Made by a program: the position numbers and the translations under genes. 64,000 bases of DNA from a virus (taxonomy: Duplodnaviria > Caudoviricetes): positions 32,001 to 96,000 of IMG/VR virus record IMGVR_UViG_3300037067_012456; one strand, 5' to 3'. A model generated the notes under the pieces. That model saw only the letters and a program-made list of their open reading frames with translations, searched no databases and was not told where the DNA came from. This document shows, piece after piece, positions 5,996-19,253 of the stretch; position 1 is the first letter of the stretch; every line of letters begins with the position of its first letter.

Positions 5996-6214
5996 CTACT
6001 TACTCTTCTTTTTGTTTTTTGCTTGATCGTTCTTCCACTTATCTCCACCCTTTTTAGGGGTAGTAGCTTTTTCTGGTTTTGAACCCTTTCCGATACCATA
6101 AGCTTTAAGAACATCTTTCCCACCAACAGTTGGTGTTTTACCTGTAGATTTCTTCATTTCCATTTTTTCAGGGATGGAAACTTTCTTCCCTTTTTGTGTT
6201 TTTACTTCTGCCAT
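5996..6214 (-). CDS. small lysine-rich basic protein
   Basis: 72 aa, very K-rich, strong AAGGAG RBS, followed by the terminator. Confidence 0.7.
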   Translation of the reverse strand: MAEVKTQKGKKVSIPEKMEMKKSTGKTPTVGGKDVLKAYGIGKGSKPEKATTPKKGGDKWKNDQAKNKKKSK

Positions 6215-6348
6215 CTAATTTCTCCTTTAGATATATATTTATAATCCATTTTTTGGAATTATTTATTCTTGGTCTTGGTGGCGATAAATTTTTTGGTCTT
6301 TTTCCAATAACATTTTCTACTAATATTGAAGACTCTTCTTTTTTCATA

Positions 6349-7713
6349 TTATCCTATTGCTTTTAATGTTTGATAATCACCATCTATTGTCATTATATCT
6401 TCAAATGCTGGTATATAACAAATTGGTTTCTCATATTCTTTTGCTTGTAATATTATTCCATATTCTCCATCAACTTCAATAAATGAATTAGCATCTGCCT
6501 TTTCATTAGTTGGTACAAAATTTAAATAATTTAACATTGTTTTAGGAACATCTATAATATGCCCTAATGATGTTAAATAAATTCTTGATATTTTATCTGT
6601 CTTAGATAATTGAAATCCTATATATGATTTTGGAACAGGTGTTAAAATACCTGGAAATTGATAATACATAAAATTTTGAGTTAATTTTATAGGTCTTATA
6701 TCTTCTTCCCACACCTGATCTGCTGTTTTTCTAATTATATTCATTAATTCTGCATAAGTTGATTCTTCTGGTAGATTCTTTAAAAAAGTTTGTCTCTCTA
6801 TTTCTTTTTTTAATTTTTCTTTTTCTCTTTCTTGTATATTAAAAAGTTGTTGTTTAGAAGTATATGGTAAAGCTTCATCTATATCTTTTTGTGTTATAAA
6901 TGACCATCTATTAACAGTTACTTCAGTAAGTTTATCATATAATTCTTTCTTAAAATTTGTCAAGGACTTTTTATCCGCATACATAGGTAAACCAGGAGCA
7001 TTATCAGGAATACTTTGATAATTAGTTGGTTTTGGAAATACTAACGAACAATTACACGAAGGGTGGCTGAGTGCTATAATAGGTTTAGCAGGAGAATACC
7101 CATGTTTTTCTGCGTGATTTTGAGCATTTTTTAATATAGAATTAATATTATATGTATTACCAGATCTTATTAAACAAATTGGGGTACTAACTTTTTCTCT
7201 TGTTCTATTTCCATATGCATCTGTTATAAATATATATTGTCTGTGTAAATGACAGTTATTGGAATCCCATTCTGGACCCAATACCCATGTTCCTATTCTA
7301 TATCCCATAGCTTTTAGATACTCTAATACTGTAAGAGAAGAATCTTTATGTTGATCTTCATCTATGTCAAATTCAGCTTGATTTACAATAGATGGAAAAA
7401 ATTGATTTAAAACACCAAATTCTGGTGCTCTTTCTTCTATTGGAGGCTTTTTTTTAAGTTTTGGTGCTATAGGTTGTTTACGTTGTAAAGTTTCTTTATA
7501 TTCTTGTTCTGGTGTTTTTGGAGGAGAAATAGGTTGTACTGGAGGTTGTACTGGAACCGCAGTTACTGGTTTTTTTGTAATTATTTGTGGAGTTAGTGGA
7601 TTAGATTCAAGATCAGACGCACGTTCTTCTATATCTTTATTAGTTAATGAATTTTGAATATTCTTTTCAAAATTAGAATAATCAAAAAGTGCTGCTTGTT
7701 TTTTAGAATCCAT
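6349..7713 (-). CDS. putative head protein with MuF/minor-head-like Cys motif
   Basis: LKAMGYRIGTWV...C...C...HPSCNC resembles the HPNCRC motif of MuF/SPP1 gp7-type domains; KQAA and KTAD motifs. Confidence 0.45.
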   Translation of the reverse strand: MDSKKQAALFDYSNFEKNIQNSLTNKDIEERASDLESNPLTPQIITKKPVTAVPVQPPVQPISPPKTPEQEYKETLQRKQPIAPKLKKKPPIEERAPEFGVLNQFFPSIVNQAEFDIDEDQHKDSSLTVLEYLKAMGYRIGTWVLGPEWDSNNCHLHRQYIFITDAYGNRTREKVSTPICLIRSGNTYNINSILKNAQNHAEKHGYSPAKPIIALSHPSCNCSLVFPKPTNYQSIPDNAPGLPMYADKKSLTNFKKELYDKLTEVTVNRWSFITQKDIDEALPYTSKQQLFNIQEREKEKLKKEIERQTFLKNLPEESTYAELMNIIRKTADQVWEEDIRPIKLTQNFMYYQFPGILTPVPKSYIGFQLSKTDKISRIYLTSLGHIIDVPKTMLNYLNFVPTNEKADANSFIEVDGEYGIILQAKEYEKPICYIPAFEDIMTIDGDYQTLKAIG

Positions 7714-8663
7714 TAAATTATATTTCCAGATAATATTTGGTAAATATTAACTACATCATTGGCTGTTAAATAGGTATTTTTATAGAGGGCATAAATTTCA
7801 AATATGATCTTTAAATAACCATATCTTTGTAAAACTTTATAAATCAAATTTCCCTCAGAATAATTAATAGATCCCATTAATTTTTCAAGATCACTATTAA
7901 GTTCTTTTTTAGTAAATTCACTTTTCCTTAAAATTTTAACAATATTTCTATCTTTATTAATTTCTTCAATATCTTTATTTATATTTTGTAATGATGTTTT
8001 TATATCATTATGTAATAAAGCAAGATCATCTTTATCTAAAGTTTTCATATAATCTCTAAGAACTAAAAAATCTATGCTATCTCTTTTTGCTCTTTCTATA
8101 TCAACAACTATTTTTTCAATATATTTTTGAGCTTTTTCTTTAGCATAGTTTAATACATAGGATGAAGACATTTTACCTTCAAATTTTTTTGGTTCTTTAA
8201 TCCATTTATCGGTTATAAGATTATATAAACTATCATATTTAATTAAACTACTTTCACTTGCTTCTTCTTCTGTAAAGAAATAGAAATCTAAAGGATGTAA
8301 AGTTCTTGGTATAAAATCAGTTAAAAAATGACTTTTTCTACCAGCTTCAATTAATTCATCACAAATATCTTCTCCAGTAGAATCTCTATATTCAATATTA
8401 TATGATTTAAAATTATTAATATTTATAACTACTTTTATATCCAAATCAGAATCATCTCTATAAAAATAGGTGGCTAAAGAAGATCCTATAAATAAATGCG
8501 AAACAAATTCATTTGCAGCTTTTATACTAATACTAGTAAAAAATCCCATAAGAGCTTTATAAATATAAGATTTAATATATGGGTGTATTTTATTATTTTC
8601 CCAAATTTCTGGACATAGAATAGTCCGTTGATAATCTAAAATAGAGGATTGTTTATTCATCAT
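7713..8663 (-). CDS. DNA polymerase beta-superfamily nucleotidyltransferase
   Basis: IGSSLATYFYRDDSDLDIKV (GS...DxD), third acidic residue in HPLDFY, Y.L..D.WIK.P motif, helical C-terminal domain. Confidence 0.8.
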   Translation of the reverse strand: MMNKQSSILDYQRTILCPEIWENNKIHPYIKSYIYKALMGFFTSISIKAANEFVSHLFIGSSLATYFYRDDSDLDIKVVININNFKSYNIEYRDSTGEDICDELIEAGRKSHFLTDFIPRTLHPLDFYFFTEEEASESSLIKYDSLYNLITDKWIKEPKKFEGKMSSSYVLNYAKEKAQKYIEKIVVDIERAKRDSIDFLVLRDYMKTLDKDDLALLHNDIKTSLQNINKDIEEINKDRNIVKILRKSEFTKKELNSDLEKLMGSINYSEGNLIYKVLQRYGYLKIIFEIYALYKNTYLTANDVVNIYQILSGNII

Positions 8664-8919
8664 CGTCTGAATTTTTGTAATCTTGAATGATATTTGTAAG
8701 TTTTTCTGTTTTCTTTAGTAGTAGAATAGATTGATCATGAGATATATTTATATTAGCAAACCATTCATCACTTGTATACATTATTTCAACTATTGCATCA
8801 CGGATTTCATTTAAGAAAAAAACCAAATTTCTATCTTTATTCATACGATCAATTTGTTCTAATTGACCAATTGAATATTCACATTTTTGACGAATAATAT
8901 TTTCAAATAATTGTGTCAT
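8653..8919 (-). CDS. hypothetical protein
   Basis: 88-aa ORF overlapping both neighbours. Confidence 0.6.
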   Translation of the reverse strand: MTQLFENIIRQKCEYSIGQLEQIDRMNKDRNLVFFLNEIRDAIVEIMYTSDEWFANINISHDQSILLLKKTEKLTNIIQDYKNSDDDE

Positions 8920-9320
8920 TAATCTATATCACCATAAGGTTCTGAAGTTGTGTGTACTTTAGTAAAATCACCTTCTTTTAATTTAAATACACTTTCTTTT
9001 GATAGCAACTGTGATCCACCAGTATCCCATTTAACTAAAATGGTATCACCATCATTTTTAATTCCTTTTACTGTTCCCTCACGACCAGTCATTCTTGATC
9101 TGACACTATTACCAATAGCGATATCTTCTTCTTTAATAAAAGTAGAAATTAGATCTTCTCTTGCAGCTTTCTTAAATGTATTTTTAATAGCAGTTGTACT
9201 ATATTTATATCCATAAGTAGCAAACCAATCTGCTAATTTATCCATTTCAAAATTTCTTTCTAACATTCTATATAATGTATCTATATAATCTTGTTTACTT
9301 TCTTTATTAATTGGTCTCAT
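8919..9320 (-). CDS. hypothetical protein with SH3/KOW-like beta barrel
   Basis: IAIGNSVRSRMTGREGTV...LVKWDTG; GAGG RBS. Confidence 0.55.
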   Translation of the reverse strand: MRPINKESKQDYIDTLYRMLERNFEMDKLADWFATYGYKYSTTAIKNTFKKAAREDLISTFIKEEDIAIGNSVRSRMTGREGTVKGIKNDGDTILVKWDTGGSQLLSKESVFKLKEGDFTKVHTTSEPYGDID

Positions 9321-9329
9321 TTTTTACCT

Positions 9330-9998
9330 CTATGTTTCTATTAAAATTGGAGTATCTTGATTCATTTTATCTATTATTAAATATTTTAAATTAGCTCTTT
9401 TTTCATCTTGTCCTAATGAGTATTCTGCTGGTAAGTCATTACTTCTTGTAAATTTTCCACCAAAACAAAATTTTATTGCTGTATCTCCAGATTTAAATTC
9501 AAATTCATACCATGATTTTTTATCAGGATTATCAAATAAATAAAATCTACTATCTTTATCATAATCTCCTATATTATAAAACACATCAGGAGATTGTTCT
9601 TCTAATTTTTTATTTGGCTCTGCTCCAGAATTAACTATATAAATTTTATTTGTAGCTTTAATAACAAGAGGTAATTCTTCCAAATATTGCTTAATGGCAT
9701 ATTGATTTTCTGCAGTTTTAAACCATTGAGGAGTATTATTAATATTTTTATTAATTAAATTAAATTCATTTTTACCTTTAACAGAATAAGTATTATGATT
9801 ATTCATAATAAAATAAAGACATTCTAATGATAAATCTATATTTTCATCAATTATATTACCTGTAGCAATTAATGTATCATTTTTATTAAAATTTTGTTCA
9901 TAAAGAGCATCAATTAATAATTCATAATTGCCACAAATATCACCAAATATGAAATATCTATCTGTTTTTAAATTTGATAAATCTAAAACAAAATCCAT
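9330..9998 (-). CDS. Ser/Thr phosphatase (lambda NinI/PrpA-like) homolog with degenerate catalytic motifs
   Basis: FGDICG, TGNIIDEN, VKGKNE and IVNSG in place of GDxHG, GDxxDRG, GNHE and xVHAG. Confidence 0.65.
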   Translation of the reverse strand: MDFVLDLSNLKTDRYFIFGDICGNYELLIDALYEQNFNKNDTLIATGNIIDENIDLSLECLYFIMNNHNTYSVKGKNEFNLINKNINNTPQWFKTAENQYAIKQYLEELPLVIKATNKIYIVNSGAEPNKKLEEQSPDVFYNIGDYDKDSRFYLFDNPDKKSWYEFEFKSGDTAIKFCFGGKFTRSNDLPAEYSLGQDEKRANLKYLIIDKMNQDTPILIET

Positions 9999-10056
9999 TA
10001 AATTATATACCTTTTATATAAAAATGAGTAATTTTCTTACTTTGTTAAGTAAATAA

Positions 10057-10317
10057 TTATACTTTTTCATATAAAACAAAATTGTTATTTTTTGTTAAAA
10101 AGAAATTGTATAAGTACCGTTTCCTTATAAGAATAGCACCAAAACCATATGGACATCTAAAATGAACAAAATTGCCTTTATCGTCATTTATTTCATAATC
10201 AAAAGTAAAATATTCTTCCTCATTTTTCATTTTAAGAATATCTCCGCTAGATAATTCTTGCATAGATTTAGATTTAAGTATTTCTTGTAATTTAAATAAT
10301 TTCATGATATTATCCAT
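10057..10317 (-). CDS. hypothetical protein
   Basis: 86-aa ORF overlapping the upstream gene. Confidence 0.55.
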   Translation of the reverse strand: MDNIMKLFKLQEILKSKSMQELSSGDILKMKNEEEYFTFDYEINDDKGNFVHFRCPYGFGAILIRKRYLYNFFLTKNNNFVLYEKV

Positions 10318-11095
10318 TATTTATAAATCTTTTTGGAAGACCAGATTTTCCCTTTTGTATTAATTTACCAAATAATATCATTCCTTTCGGAGTCATATGA
10401 ACTCCATCAGAATTCATATCTGATTTAGGCAAAATATGATTTTTTTCTATAAAATTTTTAATAAGAGGTAAAAATACTGAATTTGAATCATTCAATACCC
10501 ATTTAATAAGATTAGTATCATAGGCAGTAAAATTTAATATGGCATAAGATATTAAAGTTGCTGGTAAACCATATAAAATTATTCGTGCTTGTGGATATAA
10601 TTCTCTAATTCGATTCAATAAAATTATACATTGTTCATTAACAGAATTAATCTCTTGATGAACAAGAATTGCATTTCCATTAGGAGTTCCAATAACAATA
10701 TTTTTAGGAATATAATTATATTGTTTAAAAAGAGGTTCTAAATCATTTACCAATTGTAGCATATGATGAGACCAGGCACCACCCAAAGCATGATTCATTT
10801 TAGGTTTTATACTATCTATTCTATCTCTACATTGAGCTAAAATAGAATCTCCAATACCCCAAGTTTTATCATTATCATTAGCCATATCTTTTTTAGCATA
10901 GCTAATAAAATTATTTTTACAGGTATTTAAATGATTAGTATAATTTGGATGTGGTATATATGGACCAATTTGAGGAGTTGGAATTTTAGACCACAAAGCT
11001 ATATCCATTTCTCGTATTTTATCTTTTTGAGATTGATATTTTTTTGCATAATATAAAGTTTCTATTTCTGCTATTATTCTAGAAAATAATCCCAT
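10310..11095 (-). CDS. SGNH/GDSL-family hydrolase (esterase)
   Basis: Block I GIGDSI, block II ALGG, block III IGTPNGN, block V SDGVH; GGAG RBS. Confidence 0.8.
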   Translation of the reverse strand: MGLFSRIIAEIETLYYAKKYQSQKDKIREMDIALWSKIPTPQIGPYIPHPNYTNHLNTCKNNFISYAKKDMANDNDKTWGIGDSILAQCRDRIDSIKPKMNHALGGAWSHHMLQLVNDLEPLFKQYNYIPKNIVIGTPNGNAILVHQEINSVNEQCIILLNRIRELYPQARIILYGLPATLISYAILNFTAYDTNLIKWVLNDSNSVFLPLIKNFIEKNHILPKSDMNSDGVHMTPKGMILFGKLIQKGKSGLPKRFINNG

Positions 11096-11105
11096 TTTTA
11101 TCTCC

Positions 11106-11327
11106 TTATTTTATTGAATATTTGCAATAATCAACTATTTCATTAAATTTATCTATATCAGCTTTACTATCACCGGTCATTTGAAATTCTAACATTTTAG
11201 AATTTATACATATTTCAAATTGTGCTTTAACTTCTGCATACGTTTTTTTAGTACAACTTTTATAAGAAAATACTGATACCAAGATAAAAACTATAATACC
11301 TATAAATATAGGAGATTTTGAACTCAT
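11106..11327 (-). CDS. small membrane-anchored or exported protein
   Basis: N-terminal hydrophobic segment IFIGIIVFILVSVF; GAGG RBS. Confidence 0.6.
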   Translation of the reverse strand: MSSKSPIFIGIIVFILVSVFSYKSCTKKTYAEVKAQFEICINSKMLEFQMTGDSKADIDKFNEIVDYCKYSIK

Positions 11328-11346
11328 ACTATCCTCTCTTTTTTAA

Positions 11347-11538
11347 TTAAATATTTTCTGATTTATCTAATGGACAAAAAGATGGAAATCCATCTTTTTT
11401 TATTGATTTTATATATTTTATTTTATATTTACTATCATGAAATTTTGGATGTTTACAAATTTTTACTTCTTCCCAATTATCTATTGTGTAATAACCACAT
11501 ATAGTATCACATCTAAATAATTCTAATATCCTTGGCAT
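11347..11538 (-). CDS. small Cys-containing phage hypothetical protein
   Basis: C..IC.Y...C.HP...FP.FCPL; GAGG RBS. Confidence 0.6.
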   Translation of the reverse strand: MPRILELFRCDTICGYYTIDNWEEVKICKHPKFHDSKYKIKYIKSIKKDGFPSFCPLDKSENI

Positions 11539-11678
11539 ATATACCTCTATAAAATAATATAGTTATTTATACTATATTGAAGAGTAAAAAATTATTAATT
11601 TTTCATTCTTCAATATTTTTTACATAAACAGTTAAACCACATACACTACAAACTAAAATATGTGCATCTTCTATTTGT

Positions 11679-13601
11679 TCATTTTAATAAATTAATAATT
11701 GTATCTTTTTCTAATGATTCTGGTGATAAATCAATATCACATTCTAATTTATCATCAACTTTTATAGCTCCTGCTTTAAATATCAAATCGTTTAAAGTAA
11801 TCATATTAGTTAATGAATTAATTAGATATTTTCTACTATATTCTGTATATTCATTAACAGATGAAGTAATATTATTTCCTAAATATGATTCATTAAAATA
11901 AAATTTACATTCATTTGTTGTTACAACTACTAAACCTATAGTTTTCTGTTTTTGATCTATTTTAGAAGAAGCTATAGCTAATACATTATTAGGATCTACT
12001 AAACAATTTTTATTAAAAGGACCTGGAGCTTTTAATCCTACCATTATTTTAAATGGTACTTCTTGATCCATATATCCTTTAGAAAACGTAAAATTATTCA
12101 ATTGTACTAAATAGGATGATTTTATTTGTTTATGTATATAAAATAATTCTGTAGCTCCATCTGGTTTAGGAGCAGTAGTCATATCTCCAGAAAATAATAT
12201 ATTACTATTGCTAGTCCTATAAGCTCCATCCCATCCTATTTTACCTTCATTTATATTTAACATAGATAAATCTAAGTCAATTCTATCATCATTAGTATTT
12301 TCCCAATGCACACCAAAAATCATATCTTTTGGTGTGGATATACAAGTACCAGAAGGAAAATATCCAGTAAATCTTTTTTCAGTAGATGGTAATGTATATG
12401 TTATATAATTAGGAATATATACTTTTTTACCTTCAACATTGACTTTTAGATCTTGTATAATTGAATCTAGAACTATATTAAGAATCAATTTAGCATTGTT
12501 TTGATCTTCAAAAGAAAATTTTGTAGAAAATGCTTTATCATTTCTAATAGTATATTGAATAGAATCAAAATTTTTAGTTCTATATTGAAGAGCATATGCT
12601 AAACGAATCTTTCTAAAAATATTCGCTTTTGATAGTTCTTGTTTTAGAGTAGCTATCTTAATACCTTCGTTATTTTTTATTTTTGAAGTAATTTCATTTA
12701 AATAATCTATTGGCATTGGTTTATGATATGTATTAGCAAGTCTTCTAATTTTATTTATAATTGGATTTAAATCTACTTCTCTATTACGAAATGCTAAAAA
12801 TAATGGTTTAAATCTATAAAAAATTTCTGCTAATTTATCTAAACCATTTTCTTTGTTATATCTATTAAATAATTTATAAATATCATAATTAACTGTAATA
12901 GCTTGAATTGTTGTTTTATTTTTAATAAGTAAACTTTTTCCTGTACTTTTAAAGATAACATATCTTAAAAATTCAACAGGTTCATTAGGAATAATATTAA
13001 GAGCATCATATAATCTAATTTTTACTTCTTTATTTTTAATTAAATTAATATTAATACTATATTCAGGATTTTCAACAATAGATACAATATCTTTCATTGT
13101 ATCTTCATTTAAAGCAATACCAGATTGTAAAATATCAAGAATTTTATCTTTTAATTCCTCTACAGTATATCCTTTAATAATTGTAAAAATAAATTTATCT
13201 ATACCTATTTTTTTAAAAATGTTATTATATTCAATTTTCGGAATAACTAATTTTTCAGCAGGAATATAAACATAATTTTCATTATAAGCACCCAAAGACT
13301 CAAATCCATATGTAGTTAGATAATGAATAAATTGTTCCATTACGAGTTGATCTATAGAGGCTTCTTTAATCTTTTTCCAAGATTTGTGGAAAGAAGCATT
13401 CATTTGTTGAGGAGTTAAACCAAGATCTTTATTTATTATATTAATAATACTATTTAATTCTTCTTCTGAATAATTGTACATAACTTCAGGAGAAAAAATA
13501 AAACCATATTGTATGGTTTTATTAATTAGAGAAGAATTAATTTTCTTTCTTTTTGTTTTAATAGGAAGAGCTTTAAAAAGACGTAATGTTTGTTTTTTCA
13601 T
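11679..13601 (-). CDS. large protein with helical N-terminal region and C-terminal TerD-like domain
   Basis: FGVHWEN...RIDLDLS...IGWDG...FSGDMTTAP..GATE, a TerD-like beta-sandwich signature; AAGGA RBS. Confidence 0.7.
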   Translation of the reverse strand: MKKQTLRLFKALPIKTKRKKINSSLINKTIQYGFIFSPEVMYNYSEEELNSIINIINKDLGLTPQQMNASFHKSWKKIKEASIDQLVMEQFIHYLTTYGFESLGAYNENYVYIPAEKLVIPKIEYNNIFKKIGIDKFIFTIIKGYTVEELKDKILDILQSGIALNEDTMKDIVSIVENPEYSININLIKNKEVKIRLYDALNIIPNEPVEFLRYVIFKSTGKSLLIKNKTTIQAITVNYDIYKLFNRYNKENGLDKLAEIFYRFKPLFLAFRNREVDLNPIINKIRRLANTYHKPMPIDYLNEITSKIKNNEGIKIATLKQELSKANIFRKIRLAYALQYRTKNFDSIQYTIRNDKAFSTKFSFEDQNNAKLILNIVLDSIIQDLKVNVEGKKVYIPNYITYTLPSTEKRFTGYFPSGTCISTPKDMIFGVHWENTNDDRIDLDLSMLNINEGKIGWDGAYRTSNSNILFSGDMTTAPKPDGATELFYIHKQIKSSYLVQLNNFTFSKGYMDQEVPFKIMVGLKAPGPFNKNCLVDPNNVLAIASSKIDQKQKTIGLVVVTTNECKFYFNESYLGNNITSSVNEYTEYSRKYLINSLTNMITLNDLIFKAGAIKVDDKLECDIDLSPESLEKDTIINLLK

Positions 13602-13613
13602 ATTAATTTCCTT

Positions 13614-13794
13614 ATAAGGCGAGAGGTAAATTCAGTGTTATAGAGTTATAAATAGGAACCTCTTATGCCTTATTATTTTAAATGGCGAAAAGTAAATACA
13701 TAAATGGTTTGTTTAATAGGAACTTTTTATGCCATTTTTAAAGCGGGTGGTAGATCACCTATAGATTTTTTTAATAGGAACCACCTTTGCTTTA
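13614..13794 (-). ncRNA. array of three structurally conserved RNA hairpins (candidate ncRNA or guide-like array)
   Basis: Units 13739-13794, 13680-13737 and 13614-13673. Each has an outer stem ending GC, an asymmetric AWA/C loop, a covarying inner stem, and a loop of UCCUAUU + 18-20 variable nt + UYU. Confidence 0.75.
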
Positions 13795-13799
13795 TATAT

Positions 13800-13828
13800 T
13801 ATATAATATATTTATTCAAATTTGTCAA
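13800..13828 (-). promoter_or_regulatory. sigma70-type promoter driving the hairpin array and TerD-like gene
   Basis: TTGACA(13828)-17-TATATA(13805-13800); predicted start ~13793 coincides with the 5' end of the first hairpin. Confidence 0.7.
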
Positions 13829-13835
13829 GAAAATA

Positions 13836-14135
13836 TTATAAAGTTTCTGAATCTATTTCAAAATCTTCTTCTGGCACATCTGAATCAAAGTTATCAAAGT
13901 CTATATCAAGATCTTTAAATATAATATTTTCATCATCAGCATATGCTCCAAGACCATTAAGTATAGTTTCTTTAGTAAAACTCATACCCAACATAGCTCT
14001 AACAAAAACATTTATAAATTCATATACATTAGAAGAAGAGTCAAAAGAACTATCTGATATAAGACTTACATTTTCATTATTTGCTTCATTATTCTCAATA
14101 AAAGGATTTGTTGCTTCAATACTAATTGTTAACAT
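13836..14135 (-). CDS. acidic hypothetical protein
   Basis: 99 aa, AGGAG RBS, D/E-rich tail. Confidence 0.65.
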   Translation of the reverse strand: MLTISIEATNPFIENNEANNENVSLISDSSFDSSSNVYEFINVFVRAMLGMSFTKETILNGLGAYADDENIIFKDLDIDFDNFDSDVPEEDFEIDSETL

Positions 14136-14155
14136 TATATTCTCCTATTTTTATA

Positions 14156-14419
14156 TTAATTTTCCATACTTAATTTTTTTCTATAAAATTTTATTTCTTC
14201 TTTAATTCTATCAGATTTTATCCAAGGATTATAATTAATTTCTCCAGGAATAAGCATATTTACACATTTTTCCCAAAAAACAGCATTAGCTAAACATTGT
14301 ATTTCTTCACCAGGCCAACCTTCAATAATTTTATCATTTATTGCTACGGTTGCTATTTTTTTATTATCTTTCTTAATATCAATCTTCATCTTTAAACACT
14401 TTATTATATGATAAATCAT
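14156..14419 (-). CDS. hypothetical protein
   Basis: ORF in a co-oriented string; true start may be the internal MKIDIK. Confidence 0.55.
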   Translation of the reverse strand: MIYHIIKCLKMKIDIKKDNKKIATVAINDKIIEGWPGEEIQCLANAVFWEKCVNMLIPGEINYNPWIKSDRIKEEIKFYRKKLSMEN

Positions 14420-14582
14420 TAAGAATTTGCTCTCCCGCAGAAATAAATAAATCTACATTATCAGAGAGTTCTGGTTGTATTTGATTTTTATTTCTTTCTG
14501 TAAGACTTTCAATTTCAGCCATCATTGCTTTCATAATCCACATGAGAGCTTTTTTAATAGTTATAAGATCTTTATCTGTCAT
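14379..14582 (-). CDS. hypothetical protein
   Basis: 67-aa ORF in a co-oriented string. Confidence 0.55.
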   Translation of the reverse strand: MTDKDLITIKKALMWIMKAMMAEIESLTERNKNQIQPELSDNVDLFISAGEQILNDLSYNKVFKDED

Positions 14583-14605
14583 AGTATATATTATTATATC
14601 CTTAA

Positions 14606-14815
14606 TTATATATCTCTATAATCTTTAAAATTTTTTCCAAGAAATTCTAATATTTTAGTTCTATAAGTATCTATTTCTTCTTTTGTAGAAAGCCAAATAC
14701 GGTATCCTTCTATTTCTTTTGTATAAAAGAGTTTATTAAAAATTTCTATAGCTTTATCAATAGCAGCATCATTTGTTTCTTCATTTAAAGCAATTGCTAA
14801 GTGAATTGTTCTCAT
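14606..14815 (-). CDS. hypothetical protein
   Basis: 69 aa, ATGA-coupled to the upstream phosphoesterase gene. Confidence 0.6.
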   Translation of the reverse strand: MRTIHLAIALNEETNDAAIDKAIEIFNKLFYTKEIEGYRIWLSTKEEIDTYRTKILEFLGKNFKDYRDI

Positions 14816-15363
14816 TTTGCTGTTCCTTTTAATATTTTATTATAAAAAACTAAAATTTCTTCCATTGATACTGGTCTATAATTCCAAACATCAACCCCAA
14901 CATTTATAATAGGAATATTAACAATTTTAGGATCTTCGGTATTATATTGAAATTTCCAAAGATTATGTATATGACCACATAATGCAAAATCACAAAACTC
15001 TGGTACTTCTGGTCGCATCATTGGAGGTCTATGTTGAGCAAAAACTTGATATCCACCAAATTCTAATAAAGCAGCCATTAAAATAGATTTAACTCCATTA
15101 TTAATATCATGATTTCCTGTTATATGGATAATCTTTCCATTTAATTTCTTTTCCCAATAATGTGCTTTATTATTTCCTCCTTCTTTTCCTCCACGAAAGC
15201 ACCAATCTCCTAAATTATATACAATATCATCTGGTTTAACTCTTTGATTCCAATTATTTATTAATTTACTATTCATATCATCCACATTTTTAAATGGACG
15301 ATTACAAAATTTAATTATTGATGCGTGTGCAAAGTGAGTGTCTGCACAAAAGAAGGTTTTCAT
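14812..15363 (-). CDS. calcineurin-like phosphoesterase (small phage type)
   Basis: ADTHFAH, LGDW, GNHD, QHRP, GHIH, INVGVD. Confidence 0.9.
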   Translation of the reverse strand: MKTFFCADTHFAHASIIKFCNRPFKNVDDMNSKLINNWNQRVKPDDIVYNLGDWCFRGGKEGGNNKAHYWEKKLNGKIIHITGNHDINNGVKSILMAALLEFGGYQVFAQHRPPMMRPEVPEFCDFALCGHIHNLWKFQYNTEDPKIVNIPIINVGVDVWNYRPVSMEEILVFYNKILKGTAK

Positions 15364-15367
15364 ATCA

Positions 15368-15601
15368 TTACCATGTTTTAGTTTTTTTAATTACTTCTAA
15401 AAAATGTTTCAAAGTATCTTCAGTTTTATATTCTTGATTAATACCATCTATATAATATAAAGTATCTGTTTTTCCAATACCTATTCCTTCATGAGTTTTA
15501 TGTACAATAACTTCTTTTTGAACACCAAGTTTTTTATCTCTATAAGTTGTAATCCACTTTGTTTCTTGAGATTCAAATGCTGTTTTTTTCCATTCAATCA
15601 T
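15368..15601 (-). CDS. hypothetical protein (start revised to MIEWKK)
   Basis: The ORF-track TTG start at 15676 is the -35 box of a promoter; ATG 15601 is in frame. Confidence 0.55.
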   Translation of the reverse strand: MIEWKKTAFESQETKWITTYRDKKLGVQKEVIVHKTHEGIGIGKTDTLYYIDGINQEYKTEDTLKHFLEVIKKTKTW

Positions 15602-15647
15602 TCTTTTACACACAAAAAAGGTATTATATACACATCTATTTAATGAC

Positions 15648-15676
15648 ATAATACCTATAATAAATTTAAATGTCAA
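15648..15676 (-). promoter_or_regulatory. sigma70-type promoter
   Basis: TTGACA-17-TATTAT. Confidence 0.65.
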
Positions 15677-15701
15677 TAAAAATTTTTATTAATTTAAAAA
15701 T

Positions 15702-18700
15702 TTATCCACATTTACTAAACCCACACTCCATATTAGAACATTTTACACACCCATCAAAATAGATCAATTTACTACCACATTGTTGACATTTACCAGCATC
15801 TTCACCATCAGATATATATTTTTTTAATGTTCTAGCAATAACTTTAGCAAAATGAGTAATACCACCCTCACTTTTATTTAAAGTTTCAACAATAAATTTC
15901 AAAGGTATTCCATGACGTAATTCTAATGAAATTGATCTAGCAAAAGCATCATGTTCTTTATTTGCAAATGTTTTCATTATATTATTAACTATTATTTCAT
16001 CATCAAATTTAAAGGAATAATGACTTGATTTCTGTTTTACAATAAATCCTTCAGTTATATTTTTAGGAATATTCACATCTTCAACTGCTCCAGCAAATAC
16101 TTCAAATGGTTTATTTTCATATAATCCTACAAATGCAATCCACATTTTACCTTGATATACAACTCGGTGAATCTCACATGGAAGTTCTTTGGGTCGTTTT
16201 GGAGCATTTCTTAGTGTTTTATTATCATTATTATGTGTTAATATACCTTCACGACATCCATCTCTATAACAAGTAACCCCGATAATACCTCTTTTATTTG
16301 CTTCTAAAAACACTTGTGACACTTCTTCTGGTGAAATATTTGATGGCATATTTATTGTATTATGAGAAATAATATTATTTATTAAATAACTGTTTGTATC
16401 TTCGACTTCTATATCATAAACTTCATTTTCATTATTTTCTATTTTTTTTATTTTTATTAAATAAAGATCTTTATCAAAATTTGGAAAAAAGTCTAATAAA
16501 ATTCTATTATTAGTTCTAAGTGGATTCTCATTTTTTTGTTGTATATTAAAAGTTTTATGTGAATGTGTATATTTTTCTATATTAGTTGAAACAATATCAC
16601 ATATTTTTATATTTTTCAATTCTTTTGGAAATGGAATTAAATTATATCCAGCAATTTTAATTTGTTTGTGTTTTTCAATTGGAGTAAAAAAAGATTCATT
16701 AATAGATACTCCATAAGTATATTTTGAAATTCTTCCATTTTTTACATATTTTTTCATTTTATATGGTTTTAAACCAAGTTCACAACATATAGAAAAAATA
16801 GAATCAACTAAAGTTTTTGAATATCCTTCGTATAGTACTAATGTATTTCTTTTTATATATCCATCCAAAGATAATCCATTAATAAAATTAATTTTTTCTT
16901 CTTTTGATCCATATAAAATTTCTTTTGGTATTGTTTTATCAAGACAACCATTTCCAATTAAATTTTTTATATATCTCATTAATTTTCTTGAAGTAATATA
17001 TACAGATCTTGTATTTTTTGTTCTTTTATCTTTTATTGTATTAACTTTTTTACATTTAAATAATTTGAAACATAATTGAGTAAAAATATTTTCAACTAAA
17101 TCATCTGCAGTTGTAATACCAACATGTCCTGTACTTTCAACTAATGAGCCATCTGAAACAATCATACCCAAAAATAATGCCAAATCTTCTGACATTATAT
17201 TAGGTAAACAAATATCATTAGAATTTGATTTGTTAGTAAAATCTACACATAAAGATTGTTTACCTATAAACTCTTCTGAATAATCTCTACTTCTACAATA
17301 AATATAATCATTTTCTTTTAAATTTTTTGATTCTATCCATCCATTTTTTGTATATAATTTATGTGTTTCAGAACATTCAAGAATATCACCATTATCAAAA
17401 TATATTATTTTTGTTGGTTTTATACCACCAGAATAATGTTTTTTTATTTTCTTCCAATCACCATTAATATCTCTAACTTTCAAATCTTTAGCTTTTCCAA
17501 AAACATCATTACCACTAGCATCTCCCAATTCTTCTATAGAGAATATTCCTTTATTAGTTTGTATCTTTGTTCCTTTAGCAACACATTTACTTACACTAAG
17601 AGATACATTATTTGCTACAGATTCTAAAATATCTAGATGTTCCATTGGTTTCAGATCACCCGCAGTTACAAAGACTTTTCTCATTTCTTCTGGAATATCT
17701 TTACAAGTTTGACAAGATCCATTATTTTCTGATACTTCTTTCATTATTTTAGTTTTTATTTCAGCAGAAAAATTTTCATTTAAATATTCTTCAAATATAG
17801 GATCTGATAGATATACTGTTTCATATTCTTTATTCAATTTTTCTATTTTTCTAGAATATACTAAACCGAATACCGGTTCAATTCCACTAGATACGTCAGC
17901 TATAAAACTAATTGTTCCTGTAGGAGCTTGGCTAGTAAAACAACTGTTTCTTATACCATGTTTTTTAATATCTTTTTTTAATTGATCTATATCAATATCT
18001 CTACAATTTTTAGTAAAAAACCTCTCATTAGCTTTCATAAATAGATTATAATTAAATGCAGGATAAGCACCAACTTCTGCTGGATTTGCAAGACATTCCC
18101 ATTTTTTGTCTCTTTCTATTTGTTCCTTTCTATATTCTTTTGACAATTCTATAGATTCTTTCATTGAAATTAATGTAAAATATCTAAATAGTTCTTCTGT
18201 GAACTTTATGGCTTTTTCTGAATTATATGGTATTTTTTTCTTAAAAAGAATGTGAGCTAATCCCATTGTACCCAATCCAATGGGTCGTGTATCAAGAGTT
18301 ATTTTCTTTATTTTTGATAGAGGATATATATTAATATCTATGGCATTATCAATAAATCTAGTTGATTCTTTTATTAATTCAGTAAATCGTTCCCAATTAA
18401 ATTTAGATCCATCAAGCATTTTAATTAAATTTATTGAGCCTAAATTGCACGATTGATAAGGAATTCCTGTAAATTCGCTGCAAGGATTACAAATAACTTG
18501 ATCATTTAAATTTGTTACAGTACATCTATCGTGTGCTATTGTTTCATTAAATATACCTGGTTCAGCACATTTCCATGCTTGTTTAATAATGAGATCCCAA
18601 ACTTCTTTAGTAGTATATGTTTTTCCTGTTTTATCCTGAACTGCATATTCAAGACCATTTTTACTCCTTACCATATGAGGACAATTAGGATCTTTTTCAA

Positions 18701-19253
18701 GTTTTTCATAAAATGAAGAAGGAATTTTAATTGAGAGATTTAATCTATTAATTTTTGAAGTATCATCTTTTACTTTAATAAAATCAAGAATATTTGGATG
18801 TTCTATAGAAAGAAGAGCCATTCCAGCTCCCCTTCTTTTACCCCCTTGACGAATACTATCAAGCATTGAATTAAAGTTTTCTATGAATGCAAGAGGTCCA
18901 CTAGAATTAGCACTTAGACTTAATATATTTTCTCCAGAACCACGTAATGACGAAAAATCATATCCAACACCACCACCAGATTTTGTTACTAATGCTCCCT
19001 CTTTTAGAGATTCAAAGATTTCTTCTATGGAATCTTCTATTTGCATTGGAAAACAGGAACTTAATGTTCCTTTTCTTTCAGAAGTTCCCCCATTCATAAG
19101 AGTGGGGGAAGATGGGATAAACCATTTATTTTTAATATATTCTTTAATGGGAGGATATATATTACTAACTCGTTCTGCTAGTTGCTCCCATGTTTCTTCA
19201 TTTTTTAAGAAATAACGTTCCTTAAGAAGTTTTAAAATTGCCCCTTCATTCAT
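15702..19253 (-). CDS. nrdJ: class II (adenosylcobalamin-dependent) ribonucleotide reductase containing an intein
   Basis: PSSPTLMNGG, SSCF, GGGVG, NPCSE, SCNLGSINL, RPIGLG, APTGTIS, SSGIEP, T.YRDG.R and a C-terminal Cys-rich tail (CQQCG...GCVKC...CGFSKCG); no ATP cone; no nrdB in the window. Confidence 0.9.
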   Translation of the reverse strand: MNEGAILKLLKERYFLKNEETWEQLAERVSNIYPPIKEYIKNKWFIPSSPTLMNGGTSERKGTLSSCFPMQIEDSIEEIFESLKEGALVTKSGGGVGYDFSSLRGSGENILSLSANSSGPLAFIENFNSMLDSIRQGGKRRGAGMALLSIEHPNILDFIKVKDDTSKINRLNLSIKIPSSFYEKLEKDPNCPHMVRSKNGLEYAVQDKTGKTYTTKEVWDLIIKQAWKCAEPGIFNETIAHDRCTVTNLNDQVICNPCSEFTGIPYQSCNLGSINLIKMLDGSKFNWERFTELIKESTRFIDNAIDINIYPLSKIKKITLDTRPIGLGTMGLAHILFKKKIPYNSEKAIKFTEELFRYFTLISMKESIELSKEYRKEQIERDKKWECLANPAEVGAYPAFNYNLFMKANERFFTKNCRDIDIDQLKKDIKKHGIRNSCFTSQAPTGTISFIADVSSGIEPVFGLVYSRKIEKLNKEYETVYLSDPIFEEYLNENFSAEIKTKIMKEVSENNGSCQTCKDIPEEMRKVFVTAGDLKPMEHLDILESVANNVSLSVSKCVAKGTKIQTNKGIFSIEELGDASGNDVFGKAKDLKVRDINGDWKKIKKHYSGGIKPTKIIYFDNGDILECSETHKLYTKNGWIESKNLKENDYIYCRSRDYSEEFIGKQSLCVDFTNKSNSNDICLPNIMSEDLALFLGMIVSDGSLVESTGHVGITTADDLVENIFTQLCFKLFKCKKVNTIKDKRTKNTRSVYITSRKLMRYIKNLIGNGCLDKTIPKEILYGSKEEKINFINGLSLDGYIKRNTLVLYEGYSKTLVDSIFSICCELGLKPYKMKKYVKNGRISKYTYGVSINESFFTPIEKHKQIKIAGYNLIPFPKELKNIKICDIVSTNIEKYTHSHKTFNIQQKNENPLRTNNRILLDFFPNFDKDLYLIKIKKIENNENEVYDIEVEDTNSYLINNIISHNTINMPSNISPEEVSQVFLEANKRGIIGVTCYRDGCREGILTHNNDNKTLRNAPKRPKELPCEIHRVVYQGKMWIAFVGLYENKPFEVFAGAVEDVNIPKNITEGFIVKQKSSHYSFKFDDEIIVNNIMKTFANKEHDAFARSISLELRHGIPLKFIVETLNKSEGGITHFAKVIARTLKKYISDGEDAGKCQQCGSKLIYFDGCVKCSNMECGFSKCG
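16359..17585 (-). mobile_element. 409-aa intein with LAGLIDADG homing endonuclease in nrdJ
   Basis: Junctions SVSK|CVAKGT...YDIEVEDTNSYLINNIISHN|TINMP; block B SETHK; LAGLIDADG blocks LGMIVSDGS and FINGLSLDG. Confidence 0.92.

What the first reader, a model, noticed from the sequence alone, without database searches (positions are those of the whole stretch)
11679..13828. Promoter-driven array of three covarying RNA hairpins with variable loops, co-transcribed with a TerD-like-domain protein: candidate new RNA-protein system
Seen, read on the minus strand: C = UAAAGC-AAA-GGUGGU-UCCUAUU-AAAAAAAUCUAUAGGUGA-UCU-ACCACC-C-GCUUUA; B = AAAUGGC-AUA-AAAAGU-UCCUAUU-AAACAAACCAUUUAUGUA-UUU-ACUUUU-C-GCCAUUU; A = AUAAGGC-AUA-AGAGGU-UCCUAUU-UAUAACUCUAUAACACUGAA-UUU-ACCUCU-C-GCCUUAU. 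Stem sequences differ between units yet pairing is fully kept (compensatory changes). The GC/AWA-C internal loop, GU-AC closure and UCCUAUU are conserved, and an 18-20 nt segment is unique to each unit. A TTGACA-17-TATATA promoter would start almost exactly at hairpin C, and hairpin A ends right at the AAGGA RBS of the 640-aa gene. The array is not CRISPR (no identical repeats or cas genes), not tRNA and not a terminator set. Inference: the units are processed small RNAs (conserved scaffold plus variable guide or decoy segment) bound by the adjacent protein. Its long, helical-looking N-terminal region could be an RNA-binding scaffold, loosely analogous to Ro60/TROVE with Y RNAs. The alternative is a multi-site autoregulatory leader. 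Caveat: on the plus strand the A-C mismatch becomes a G-U pair, so orientation rests on the promoter.
Basis: partly seen in the sequence, partly recalled or inferred. Interest (0 to 1): 0.88.

Follow-up and report, generated by a model that had tools for sequence, protein, structure and literature searches.

The report
Phage Y-like RNAs with TerD-domain partner
Three small folded RNAs that share one conserved "handle" sit in front of an unannotated 640-residue phage gene, and the same RNA-protein pair recurs in hundreds of phages and some bacteria, so it is probably an undescribed counterpart of the Ro60/Y-RNA particle.

Summary
Three hairpins lie on the minus strand (13739-13794, 13680-13737, 13614-13673), between a TTGACA-17-TATATA promoter and the AAGGA ribosome-binding site of a 640-aa ORF (11679-13601).

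They are copies of a conserved RNA "handle": stem, A-N-A opposite a bulged C, then a 6-bp stem ending G-C/U-A, then UCCU.
- A covariance model finds 279 copies beside about 150 homologous genes. All are on the gene's strand.
- 11 of 12 pairs show compensatory changes.
- In 22 whole phage genomes nearly all copies lie within about 3 kb of the gene.
- No other protein-coding neighbour is conserved.

Some relatives carry a YrlA-type permuted tRNA-like module in the loop. tRNA genes are frequent neighbours. In Chryseobacterium defluvii the order is RtcB, three handles, the gene, RlaP.

The protein has an alpha-solenoid N-terminal region and a TerD-fold C-terminal domain. It has no Pfam or PHROG match and no profile similarity to TROVE/Ro60.

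Best reading: Y-RNA-like small RNAs bound by their neighbouring protein, possibly also auto-regulating it. Binding and processing are inferred, not shown. A "guide" role has no support.

The motif is absent from Rfam 15, and no paper describing it was found. Earlier follow-ups of this scan reached the same reading on other genomes.

The parts
13823..13828 (-). -35 hexamer TTGACA of the likely promoter of the array and the gene
   Evidence: Read directly. Conserved as TTGACA-17-TATATT in the closest relative L004. A consensus match only; transcription was not shown.
13800..13805 (-). -10 hexamer TATATA, 17-nt spacer. A perfect TATAAT lies at 13798-13803 with a 19-nt spacer.
   Evidence: Read directly. 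The scanner's rule for the -10 hexamer excluded it.
13739..13794 (-). RNA unit C: handle plus a 28-nt loop
   Evidence: Model R1 58.6 bits, E 3.9e-13. Folds as predicted.
13680..13737 (-). RNA unit B: handle plus a 28-nt loop
   Evidence: Model R1 62.4 bits, E 3.8e-14. Folds as predicted.
13614..13673 (-). RNA unit A: handle plus a 30-nt loop. It ends 12 nt before the start codon.
   Evidence: Model R1 62.3 bits, E 4e-14. Folds as predicted.
13609..13613 (-). Ribosome-binding site AAGGA, directly after unit A
   Evidence: Read directly.
11679..13601 (-). 640-aa protein of an unannotated family, the presumed RNA partner
   Evidence: ORF. No Pfam or PHROG hit. More than 2156 relatives at E <= 0.001. 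1421 clusters at 50% identity. AF2 model mean pLDDT 85.4, pTM 0.85.
12417..13601 (-). N-terminal region, residues 1 to about 395. It comprises a small alpha/beta head, a low-confidence segment with the invariant FHKSW and EQxxHYxTTYG motifs, and an alpha-solenoid at about 140-390.
   Evidence: AF2 models. Invariant columns. No significant PDB match by Foldseek, best E 0.09. The only long VIA match is Ro60 of Thermus phage phiLo: Z 6.0, 204 residues, rmsd 6.1.
11823..12344 (-). TerD-fold beta-sandwich domain, residues about 420-593
   Evidence: VIA: 2qz7_B Z 9.5 (147 residues, rmsd 3.2) and 2kxt Z 8.7. Foldseek: 3ibz, 2kxt and 2qng at probability 1.00. Weak NCBIfam NF041916 hit at residues 429-487, E 1e-6.
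11682..11822 (-). C-terminal helical tail, residues about 594-640
   Evidence: AF2 secondary structure.

Best explanation
The locus is a two-part RNA-protein module. A promoter drives one transcript that carries three small structured RNAs and then the mRNA of a 640-aa protein.

Each RNA is a conserved 'handle' closing a variable loop. The handle is an outer stem ending in a C-G pair, an A-N-A/C asymmetric internal loop, and an inner stem closed by G-C and U-A followed by UCCU.

The protein has an alpha-solenoid body and a TerD-fold domain. It most likely recognises the invariant features of the handle and forms a ribonucleoprotein with each unit. This would work like the Ro60/Y-RNA particle: the handle corresponds to the Y-RNA stem, and the loop is an effector module.

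In relatives that loop is a YrlA-type tRNA mimic. In this window it is a short A/U-rich loop, as in a YrlB-like short form.

The likely field of action is tRNA/RNA surveillance or repair during infection, or interference with host enzymes that act on tRNA.

Binding to unit A, 12 nt from the start codon, could also feed back on translation of the protein.

Shown: the conservation, covariation, strand, genomic linkage, protein fold and neighbourhoods. Inferred: binding, processing and the physiological role.
For: 1. Structure is under selection.
- 96.5% of cells are paired and 11 of 12 pairs have double changes; 0 of 500 shuffles reach this (seed alignment).
- In a test free of pairing pre-selection, 236 of 306 sequence-only 5' anchors have an exactly complementary 3' half. 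With stems swapped between units the count is 19-29.

2. It is an RNA on the gene's strand.
- 279 model hits on the gene's strand and none on the opposite strand, in about 700 kb.
- G-U 33 against A-C 2 in the well-aligned pairs.

3. It is linked to the protein.
- At least one hit in about 93 of the first 100 loci searched. Several of the rest lack upstream sequence.
- The link holds down to 26-30% protein identity.
- 22 of 22 phage genomes of 100-261 kb have hits, nearly all within about 3 kb of the gene.
- No other protein-coding neighbour is conserved across 156 loci.

4. It resembles Y RNA.
- 16 of 24 long loops, in 13 loci, contain a T arm, a closed acceptor-like hairpin and a D arm in permuted order.
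- Rfam YrlA matches these at 35-52 bits, E 1e-8 to 7e-4, below its gathering score of 69.

5. Neighbourhoods.
- tRNA genes lie within 1.5 kb in 19 of 80 viral loci; 91 of 93 are on the same strand. In cyanophages S-CRM01 and S-CBWM1 the gene sits inside the tRNA array.
- Chryseobacterium defluvii has RtcB, three handles, the gene and RlaP in one direction. This parallels the Salmonella operon that holds rsr, the yrl RNAs and the rtc RNA-repair genes (named in the titles and abstracts listed).
- A Bythopirellula island holds this pair beside a canonical Ro60 with two YrlA and about 28 tRNAs. Each protein keeps its own RNA type.

6. Canonical Ro60 is absent from 13 of 13 complete phage records that carry the pair.
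Against: - No experiment or expression data shows discrete small RNAs or binding.
- The protein shows no sequence-profile similarity to TROVE. Its resemblance to the Ro60 ring is within the noise for helical repeats.
- The handle does not carry the proposed Ro60-binding motif GNCGAAN0-1G (PMC4201824).
- The three units of this window lack a tRNA-like module and have no Rfam match.
- RtcB lies within 1.5 kb in only 2 of the about 150 loci checked.
- The nearest structural relatives of the whole protein are bacterial RING-domain proteins of unknown role, which says nothing about RNA.
- The last unit usually sits just before the start codon, median about 32 nt. That also fits a cis-acting operator.
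Confidence: 0.6

Rival explanations
1. The hairpins are only a cis-acting leader. The protein binds its own 5' untranslated region at one to several operator hairpins and represses its translation, as many phage and ribosomal proteins do. No trans-acting RNA is made.
For: - The array lies between the promoter and the ribosome-binding site, with no terminator in between.
- Unit A ends 12 nt before the ATG. Across loci the last unit ends a median of about 32 nt before the gene.
- The only conserved partner of the gene is the RNA.
Against: - About 17-22 strict units lie just downstream of the gene, and in some loci only there, for example L076 and L032.
- Other copies stand among tRNA genes or 10-28 kb from the gene: S-CBWM1 297-349, Phass-1 and G015.
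- Up to 7 tandem copies occur, and some loops hold whole tRNA-like domains. An operator needs neither.
Confidence: 0.15
2. The RNAs are substrates rather than partners. The protein is an enzyme, such as a nuclease or an end-modifying or editing activity. It cuts or modifies the handle at the internal loop, perhaps to mature the permuted tRNA-like inserts together with a ligase such as RtcB.
For: - The protein has invariant His, Lys, Ser, Tyr, Arg and Asn residues: FHKSW, HYxTTY, RFKP and N283/R286/H293.
- RtcB and an RlaP nucleotidyltransferase flank the pair in Chryseobacterium.
- One locus (L096) nests a complete tRNA inside the handle.
- Permuted tRNA genes matured through cutting and ligation are known in algae and archaea (established knowledge).
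Against: - No catalytic fold or family was recognised by Pfam, PHROG, NCBIfam, PADLOC or PDB searches.
- Most units, including all three here, have short unstructured loops with nothing to mature.
- RtcB is a rare neighbour.
Confidence: 0.15
3. The repeats act at the DNA level, as protein-binding iterons, recombination sites or a mobile repeat. Alternatively they are decayed tRNA remnants without function.
For: - Tandem arrangement.
- Frequent closeness to tRNA arrays.
Against: - Strict orientation with the gene, 279 to 0.
- Compensatory changes keep pairing while the sequence drifts.
- G-U is tolerated but A-C is not.
- The invariant single-stranded UCCU and bulged C are kept down to 26% protein identity.
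- ARAGORN finds no tRNA in the window.
Confidence: 0.03

Closest known systems
Ro60 (Rsr; TROVE + vWA) with bacterial Y RNAs YrlA/YrlB (Rfam RF02553), including the Salmonella RNA-repair operon and the Deinococcus Rsr-Y RNA-PNPase machine (PMC4201824)
   Same: - Small RNAs are encoded next to, and on the same strand as, one large protein.
- A stem formed by the RNA's two ends is the constant part.
- The variable part can be a permuted tRNA mimic: T arm, closed acceptor hairpin and D arm.
- Short and long RNA forms coexist.
- The pair occurs in phages, and beside RtcB-type RNA-repair genes and tRNA arrays.
   Different: - The protein has no TROVE or vWA domain. It has a different helical body plus a TerD-fold domain.
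- The handle has its own invariant features (A-N-A/C loop, G-C/U-A closure, UCCU) and lacks GNCGAAN0-1G.
- There are up to 7 tandem copies.
- The units in this window have no tRNA-like domain.
- Rfam's YrlA model hits only the long forms, and below its threshold.
Ro60 of Thermus phage phiLo with Yrl1/Yrl2 (PDB 9l5y; PMC12135203)
   Same: A phage-encoded protein with phage-encoded Y-like RNAs. It is the only long structural alignment of the N-terminal region: Z 6.0, 204 residues.
   Different: phiLo Ro60 is a canonical HEAT-ring plus vWA protein. The match here is weak (rmsd 6.1, 7% identity) and within the range seen for unrelated helical repeats.
TerD family (PF02342; PDB 2kxt, 3ibz, 2qz7)
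   Same: The beta-sandwich fold of residues about 420-593. A remnant of the SGD...E motif is present.
   Different: - Below every Pfam threshold.
- Fused to about 400 residues of helical protein.
- No ter operon context.
- The acidic calcium-binding run is largely replaced.
MXAN_6230/SCO0854 family RING-domain proteins (NCBIfam NF041916)
   Same: A predicted-structure match over 579 residues, TM 0.70 normalised to the query. A weak sequence hit in the TerD-like part.
   Different: - No RING domain here.
- 27 bits against a cut-off of 600.
- That family is actinobacterial or myxobacterial and itself uncharacterised.
- No RNA partner is known for it.

Membership tests
Ro60 / TROVE proteins | TROVE domain detectable by sequence (Pfam PF05731) | tested here: not met
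   No Pfam hit at E <= 0.1. hhalign of the family alignments against a 16-sequence TROVE alignment gives probabilities of 0.2% and 0.05%. As a positive control, the same Pfam model finds Ro60 in Bythopirellula and Chryseobacterium.
Ro60 / TROVE proteins | C-terminal von Willebrand factor A domain | tested here: not met
   The C-terminal domain has the TerD fold: Z 9.5 to 2qz7_B and Foldseek probability 1.00 to 3ibz and 2kxt.
Ro60 / TROVE proteins | Ring of HEAT-like repeats | tested here: inconclusive
   VIA: 9l5y_B Z 6.0 (204 residues, rmsd 6.1) and 1yvp_A Z 5.8 over 68 residues. Foldseek: 2i91_A E 0.57. All are within the range of unrelated helical repeats.
Y RNA, YrlA type (Rfam RF02553) | Score at or above the Rfam gathering threshold of 69 bits | tested here: not met
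   The window units give no hit at E <= 10. Long-loop relatives give 35-52 bits.
Y RNA, YrlA type (Rfam RF02553) | tRNA-like domain (T arm, acceptor-like hairpin, D arm) closed by the terminal stem | tested here: not met
   Absent from the three units of this window, whose loops are 28-30 nt. Present in 16 long-loop units of 13 related loci.
Y RNA, YrlA type (Rfam RF02553) | Proposed Ro60-binding motif GNCGAAN0-1G in the 5' strand (PMC4201824) | tested here: not met
   The handle consensus is G-G-C A-W-A N4-G-U U-C-C-U-A. It contains no such motif.
Y RNA, YrlA type (Rfam RF02553) | Encoded next to a Ro60 orthologue | tested here: not met
   TROVE is absent from the window's virus record and from 13 of 13 complete phage records that carry the pair.
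TerD family (PF02342) | TerD beta-sandwich fold | tested here: met
   2qz7_B Z 9.5 and 2kxt Z 8.7. Foldseek probability 1.00, TM 0.52-0.56 normalised to the target.
TerD family (PF02342) | Match to the Pfam model | tested here: not met
   No hit at E <= 0.1.
CRISPR array | Near-identical direct repeats with unique spacers, plus cas genes | tested here: not met
   The stems differ between units and the variable part lies inside each hairpin. No Rfam CRISPR repeat hit. No Pfam or PHROG cas family among the neighbours scanned. No PADLOC hit for the 640-aa protein itself.
tRNA | Cloverleaf recognised by ARAGORN or the Rfam tRNA model | tested here: not met
   No tRNA in the window. No tRNA hit in 13400-14000.
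MXAN_6230/SCO0854 RING family (NF041916) | Score above the curated cut-off of 600 bits, and a RING domain | tested here: not met
   27.2 bits over residues 429-487 only. No RING domain by Pfam.

The most novel reading that the evidence does not exclude
This is a second, independently evolved Y-RNA system. A non-TROVE protein family, abundant in large phages, uses a universal RNA handle to carry interchangeable modules: short loops, tRNA mimics, even whole tRNAs. The particles protect, repair or decoy tRNAs during infection, for example against host nucleases that cut tRNA. If so, they would be a widespread phage counter-defence or RNA-surveillance device.
Probability: 0.4. Interest if true: 0.9.

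Novelty: new variant of a known kind. Interest (0 to 1): 0.82.

Why it matters
Until now Y RNAs have been tied to a single protein, Ro60. Here the same RNA architecture appears: a terminal-stem handle, a variable module that is sometimes a permuted tRNA mimic, and a place next to tRNA and RNA-repair genes. But it is paired with a different and very common protein family, with more than 1400 clusters at 50% identity and no Pfam, PHROG or Rfam entry.

If the pairing is confirmed:
- A large unannotated phage protein family and its RNA would gain a function.
- There would be a case of convergent or very deeply diverged RNP design.
- What Y-like RNAs do in phage infection could be tested in culturable systems: Synechococcus phages S-CRM01 and S-CBWM1, and Chryseobacterium defluvii DSM 14219.

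Tried and rejected
- Rfam on the window region: only chance snoRNA-like rows at E > 1.
- ARAGORN: no tRNA in the window.
- Pfam, PHROG, PADLOC and PDB sequence searches of the protein: nothing.
- The first locus scan with the single protein found no relative. It succeeded with the alignment.
- TROVE homology: rejected at sequence-profile level.
- Fold searches of the N-terminal region: only short helical hairpins at Z < 7, and no Foldseek hit below E 0.09.
- Guide hypothesis: the variable segments have no second match in the 104.5-kb phage record at up to 4 mismatches.
- Conserved protein partner: an all-against-all comparison of flanking ORFs found none. The recurring clusters were antisense ORFs inside the gene.
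- Fused longer forms: none found.
- Neighbours in the window (two Metallophos proteins, small ORFs, ribonucleotide reductase) gave no RNA-repair signal.
- Literature searches on YrlA, Ro60, phage, TerD, tRNA arrays and tRNA mimics found no description of this pair. The 2026 preprint on three tRNA-mimic families covers other motifs.
- An Rx6H (HEPN-like) reading of R286...H293, a 2H-phosphoesterase reading of H72-K-S-W, and a T-loop reading of G-U-U-C were considered. None could be tested with these tools, so none is claimed.
Full report
**What is there**

On the minus strand the window reads as follows:
- TTGACA (13828-13823), a 17-nt spacer, then TATATA (13805-13800).
- Three hairpins: C (13739-13794), B (13680-13737) and A (13614-13673), separated by 1 and 6 nt.
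- AAGGA (13613-13609), then the ATG at 13601 of a 640-aa ORF that ends at 11679.

Each hairpin has an outer stem, A-W-A opposite a single C, a 6-bp inner stem ending G-U/A-C, then UCCUAUU, 18-20 unique bases and a U-rich end. RNAfold reproduces all three, with z = -3.8 against shuffles. No Rfam family matches, and ARAGORN finds no tRNA in the window. The window belongs to a 104.5-kb, 26.5% G+C virus record that CheckV rates 38% complete. That record has these three copies only.

**The same RNA accompanies the same gene elsewhere**

The protein has more than 2156 relatives at E <= 0.001. It falls into 1421 clusters at 50% identity. None carries a Pfam domain.
- The closest relative (83% identity) has the same promoter and three hairpins.
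- A 57% relative has two hairpins, with loops of 20 and 46 nt.
- Synechococcus phages S-CRM01 and S-CBWM1 (29-30% identity) have the motif beside the gene, inside their tRNA arrays.

I then collected 152 loci from viral contigs and genomes. A strict pattern found 257 units on the gene's strand and 3 on the other. Most end within 300 nt upstream of the gene, and some lie just downstream.

I also ran a test that does not pre-select for pairing. Of 306 5' halves found by sequence alone, 236 have an exactly complementary 3' half. With stems swapped between units the count is 19-29.

A covariance model built from 93 units gave 218 + 61 hits in these loci, all on the gene's strand. These include loci whose protein is only 26-30% identical. 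On the model-based alignment:
- 96.5% of cells pair.
- 11 of 12 pairs show double changes.
- No shuffle out of 500 reaches this.
- In the well-aligned pairs G-U outnumbers A-C by 33 to 2.

The invariant positions are the C-G pair that closes the outer stem, A7 and A9 of the internal loop, the bulged C, the G-C and U-A pairs that close the inner stem, and UCCU.

**Linkage**

In 22 whole phage genomes of 100-261 kb every record has hits. Nearly all lie within about 3 kb of the gene. The exceptions are one remote copy in G015 and three in Phass-1. An all-against-all comparison of flanking ORFs in 156 loci found no other conserved protein-coding neighbour. Units are packed with a median spacing of 11 nt and have A/U-rich flanks. 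The last unit ends a median of about 32 nt before the gene.

**What kind of RNA**

Loop length runs from 12 to 137 nt. Sixteen of the 24 long loops, in 13 loci, contain a T arm (GGUUCGA), a closed acceptor-like hairpin and a D arm (GUAGCUCAGUUGGUAGAGC) in permuted order. This is the architecture described for YrlA (PMC4201824). Rfam's YrlA model matches these units at 35-52 bits, below its threshold of 69. One locus (L096) nests an ordinary tRNA inside the handle. The handle therefore behaves like a Y-RNA stem that carries interchangeable modules. The three units of this window are short forms.

**What kind of protein**

AF2 gives a confident model, mean pLDDT 85.4.
- Residues about 420-593 have the TerD fold: 2qz7_B Z 9.5, 2kxt Z 8.7, Foldseek probability 1.00.
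- The N-terminal 400 residues, folded alone (pLDDT 87), form an alpha-solenoid with no significant PDB match.
- The only long alignment is to Ro60 of Thermus phage phiLo: Z 6.0, 204 residues, rmsd 6.1. That is within the noise for helical repeats.
- Profile-profile comparison with a TROVE alignment is negative, at 0.2% and 0.05%.
- Full-length look-alikes exist among phage proteins in BFVD.
- The actinobacterial MXAN_6230/SCO0854 RING family also resembles it: TM 0.70 and a weak NCBIfam hit.

So the protein is not a demonstrable TROVE member.

**Context**

tRNA genes lie within 1.5 kb in 19 of 80 viral loci, and 91 of 93 are on the same strand. Canonical TROVE is absent from the window's record and from 13 of 13 complete phage records that carry the pair.

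In a Bythopirellula chromosome the gene with one handle lies next to a PcfJ-like gene, a canonical Ro60, two YrlA-like RNAs and about 28 tRNAs. The two proteins therefore keep distinct RNA types side by side.

Following a lead from earlier notes of this scan, I checked five bacterial genomes. In Chryseobacterium defluvii the order on one strand is RtcB, three handles, the gene, then RlaP. This matches the layout of Ro60/Y-RNA repair operons. Such neighbours are rare, however: RtcB lies within 1.5 kb in only 2 of the loci.

**Reading**

The best-supported explanation is a Y-RNA-like ribonucleoprotein module. The co-transcribed small RNAs would be bound through their handle by the protein encoded next to them, and would act in tRNA/RNA surveillance, repair or interference with host enzymes. 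Autoregulation through unit A is a plausible added role.

A purely cis-acting leader fits poorly with copies downstream of the gene, among tRNAs or far away, and with tRNA-like loops. An enzyme-substrate relation cannot be excluded. A DNA-level role is strongly disfavoured. A guide role has no support.

Binding, processing and physiology are all inferred.

**Novelty**

The motif is not in Rfam 15. The protein is not in Pfam, PHROG, NCBIfam or PADLOC. No paper in the searchable library describes the pair. Three earlier follow-ups of this scan reached the same reading on other genomes. I reached it independently and re-tested its main supports here.

Noticed in passing
L165 (Bythopirellula chromosome) 8453-19001: An island that combines the new gene and one handle, a PcfJ-like gene, a canonical Ro60 (TROVE + vWA), two sub-threshold YrlA-like RNAs and an array of about 28 tRNA genes.
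   Followed up: partly
L096 4-121: A complete, non-permuted tRNA (Rfam tRNA 39.9 bits, with an encoded CCA end) is nested inside the loop of a handle unit. ARAGORN did not call it.
   Followed up: no
L003 (Phage Phass-1) 6016-6480: Five to six handle units lie about 1.3 kb downstream of the gene. They overlap a CDS annotated as a hypothetical protein (6022-6321), which is probably not a real gene. Three more copies lie about 10 kb away in the record.
   Followed up: partly
window 15702-19253 (-): The 1183-aa ribonucleotide reductase large subunit has PHROG hits to terminase and head-protein families at residues about 554-657. This suggests an inserted element such as an intein or homing endonuclease.
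   Followed up: no
window 11575-11625 (-): A 9-bp inverted repeat (TATTGAAGA ... TCTTCAATA) with a 23-nt A/T-rich loop lies just after the gene's stop codon. It is not a canonical terminator.
   Followed up: no
window 9330-9998 (-) and 14812-15363 (-): Two calcineurin-like phosphoesterase (Metallophos) genes flank the locus at 2-3 kb. Any functional link is unknown.
   Followed up: no
window 36602-36634 (-): A weak partial hit of the handle model (16.8 bits, E 0.058, model positions 10-49). Probably chance.
   Followed up: no
handle positions 15-21 (G-U-U-C-C-U-A), all units: The invariant G-U-U-C after the inner stem resembles the start of a tRNA T loop (G53-U54-U55-C56), and the never-varying U-A closing pair could be non-canonical. 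Whether tRNA-modifying enzymes or a T-loop-like fold are involved is untested.
   Followed up: no
L169 (Marinicella meishanensis) 8601-12126: Here the family gene overlaps a downstream 554-aa HEAT-repeat gene, and no handle was detected within 9 kb. This may be a variant without the RNA, or with a diverged one.
   Followed up: no
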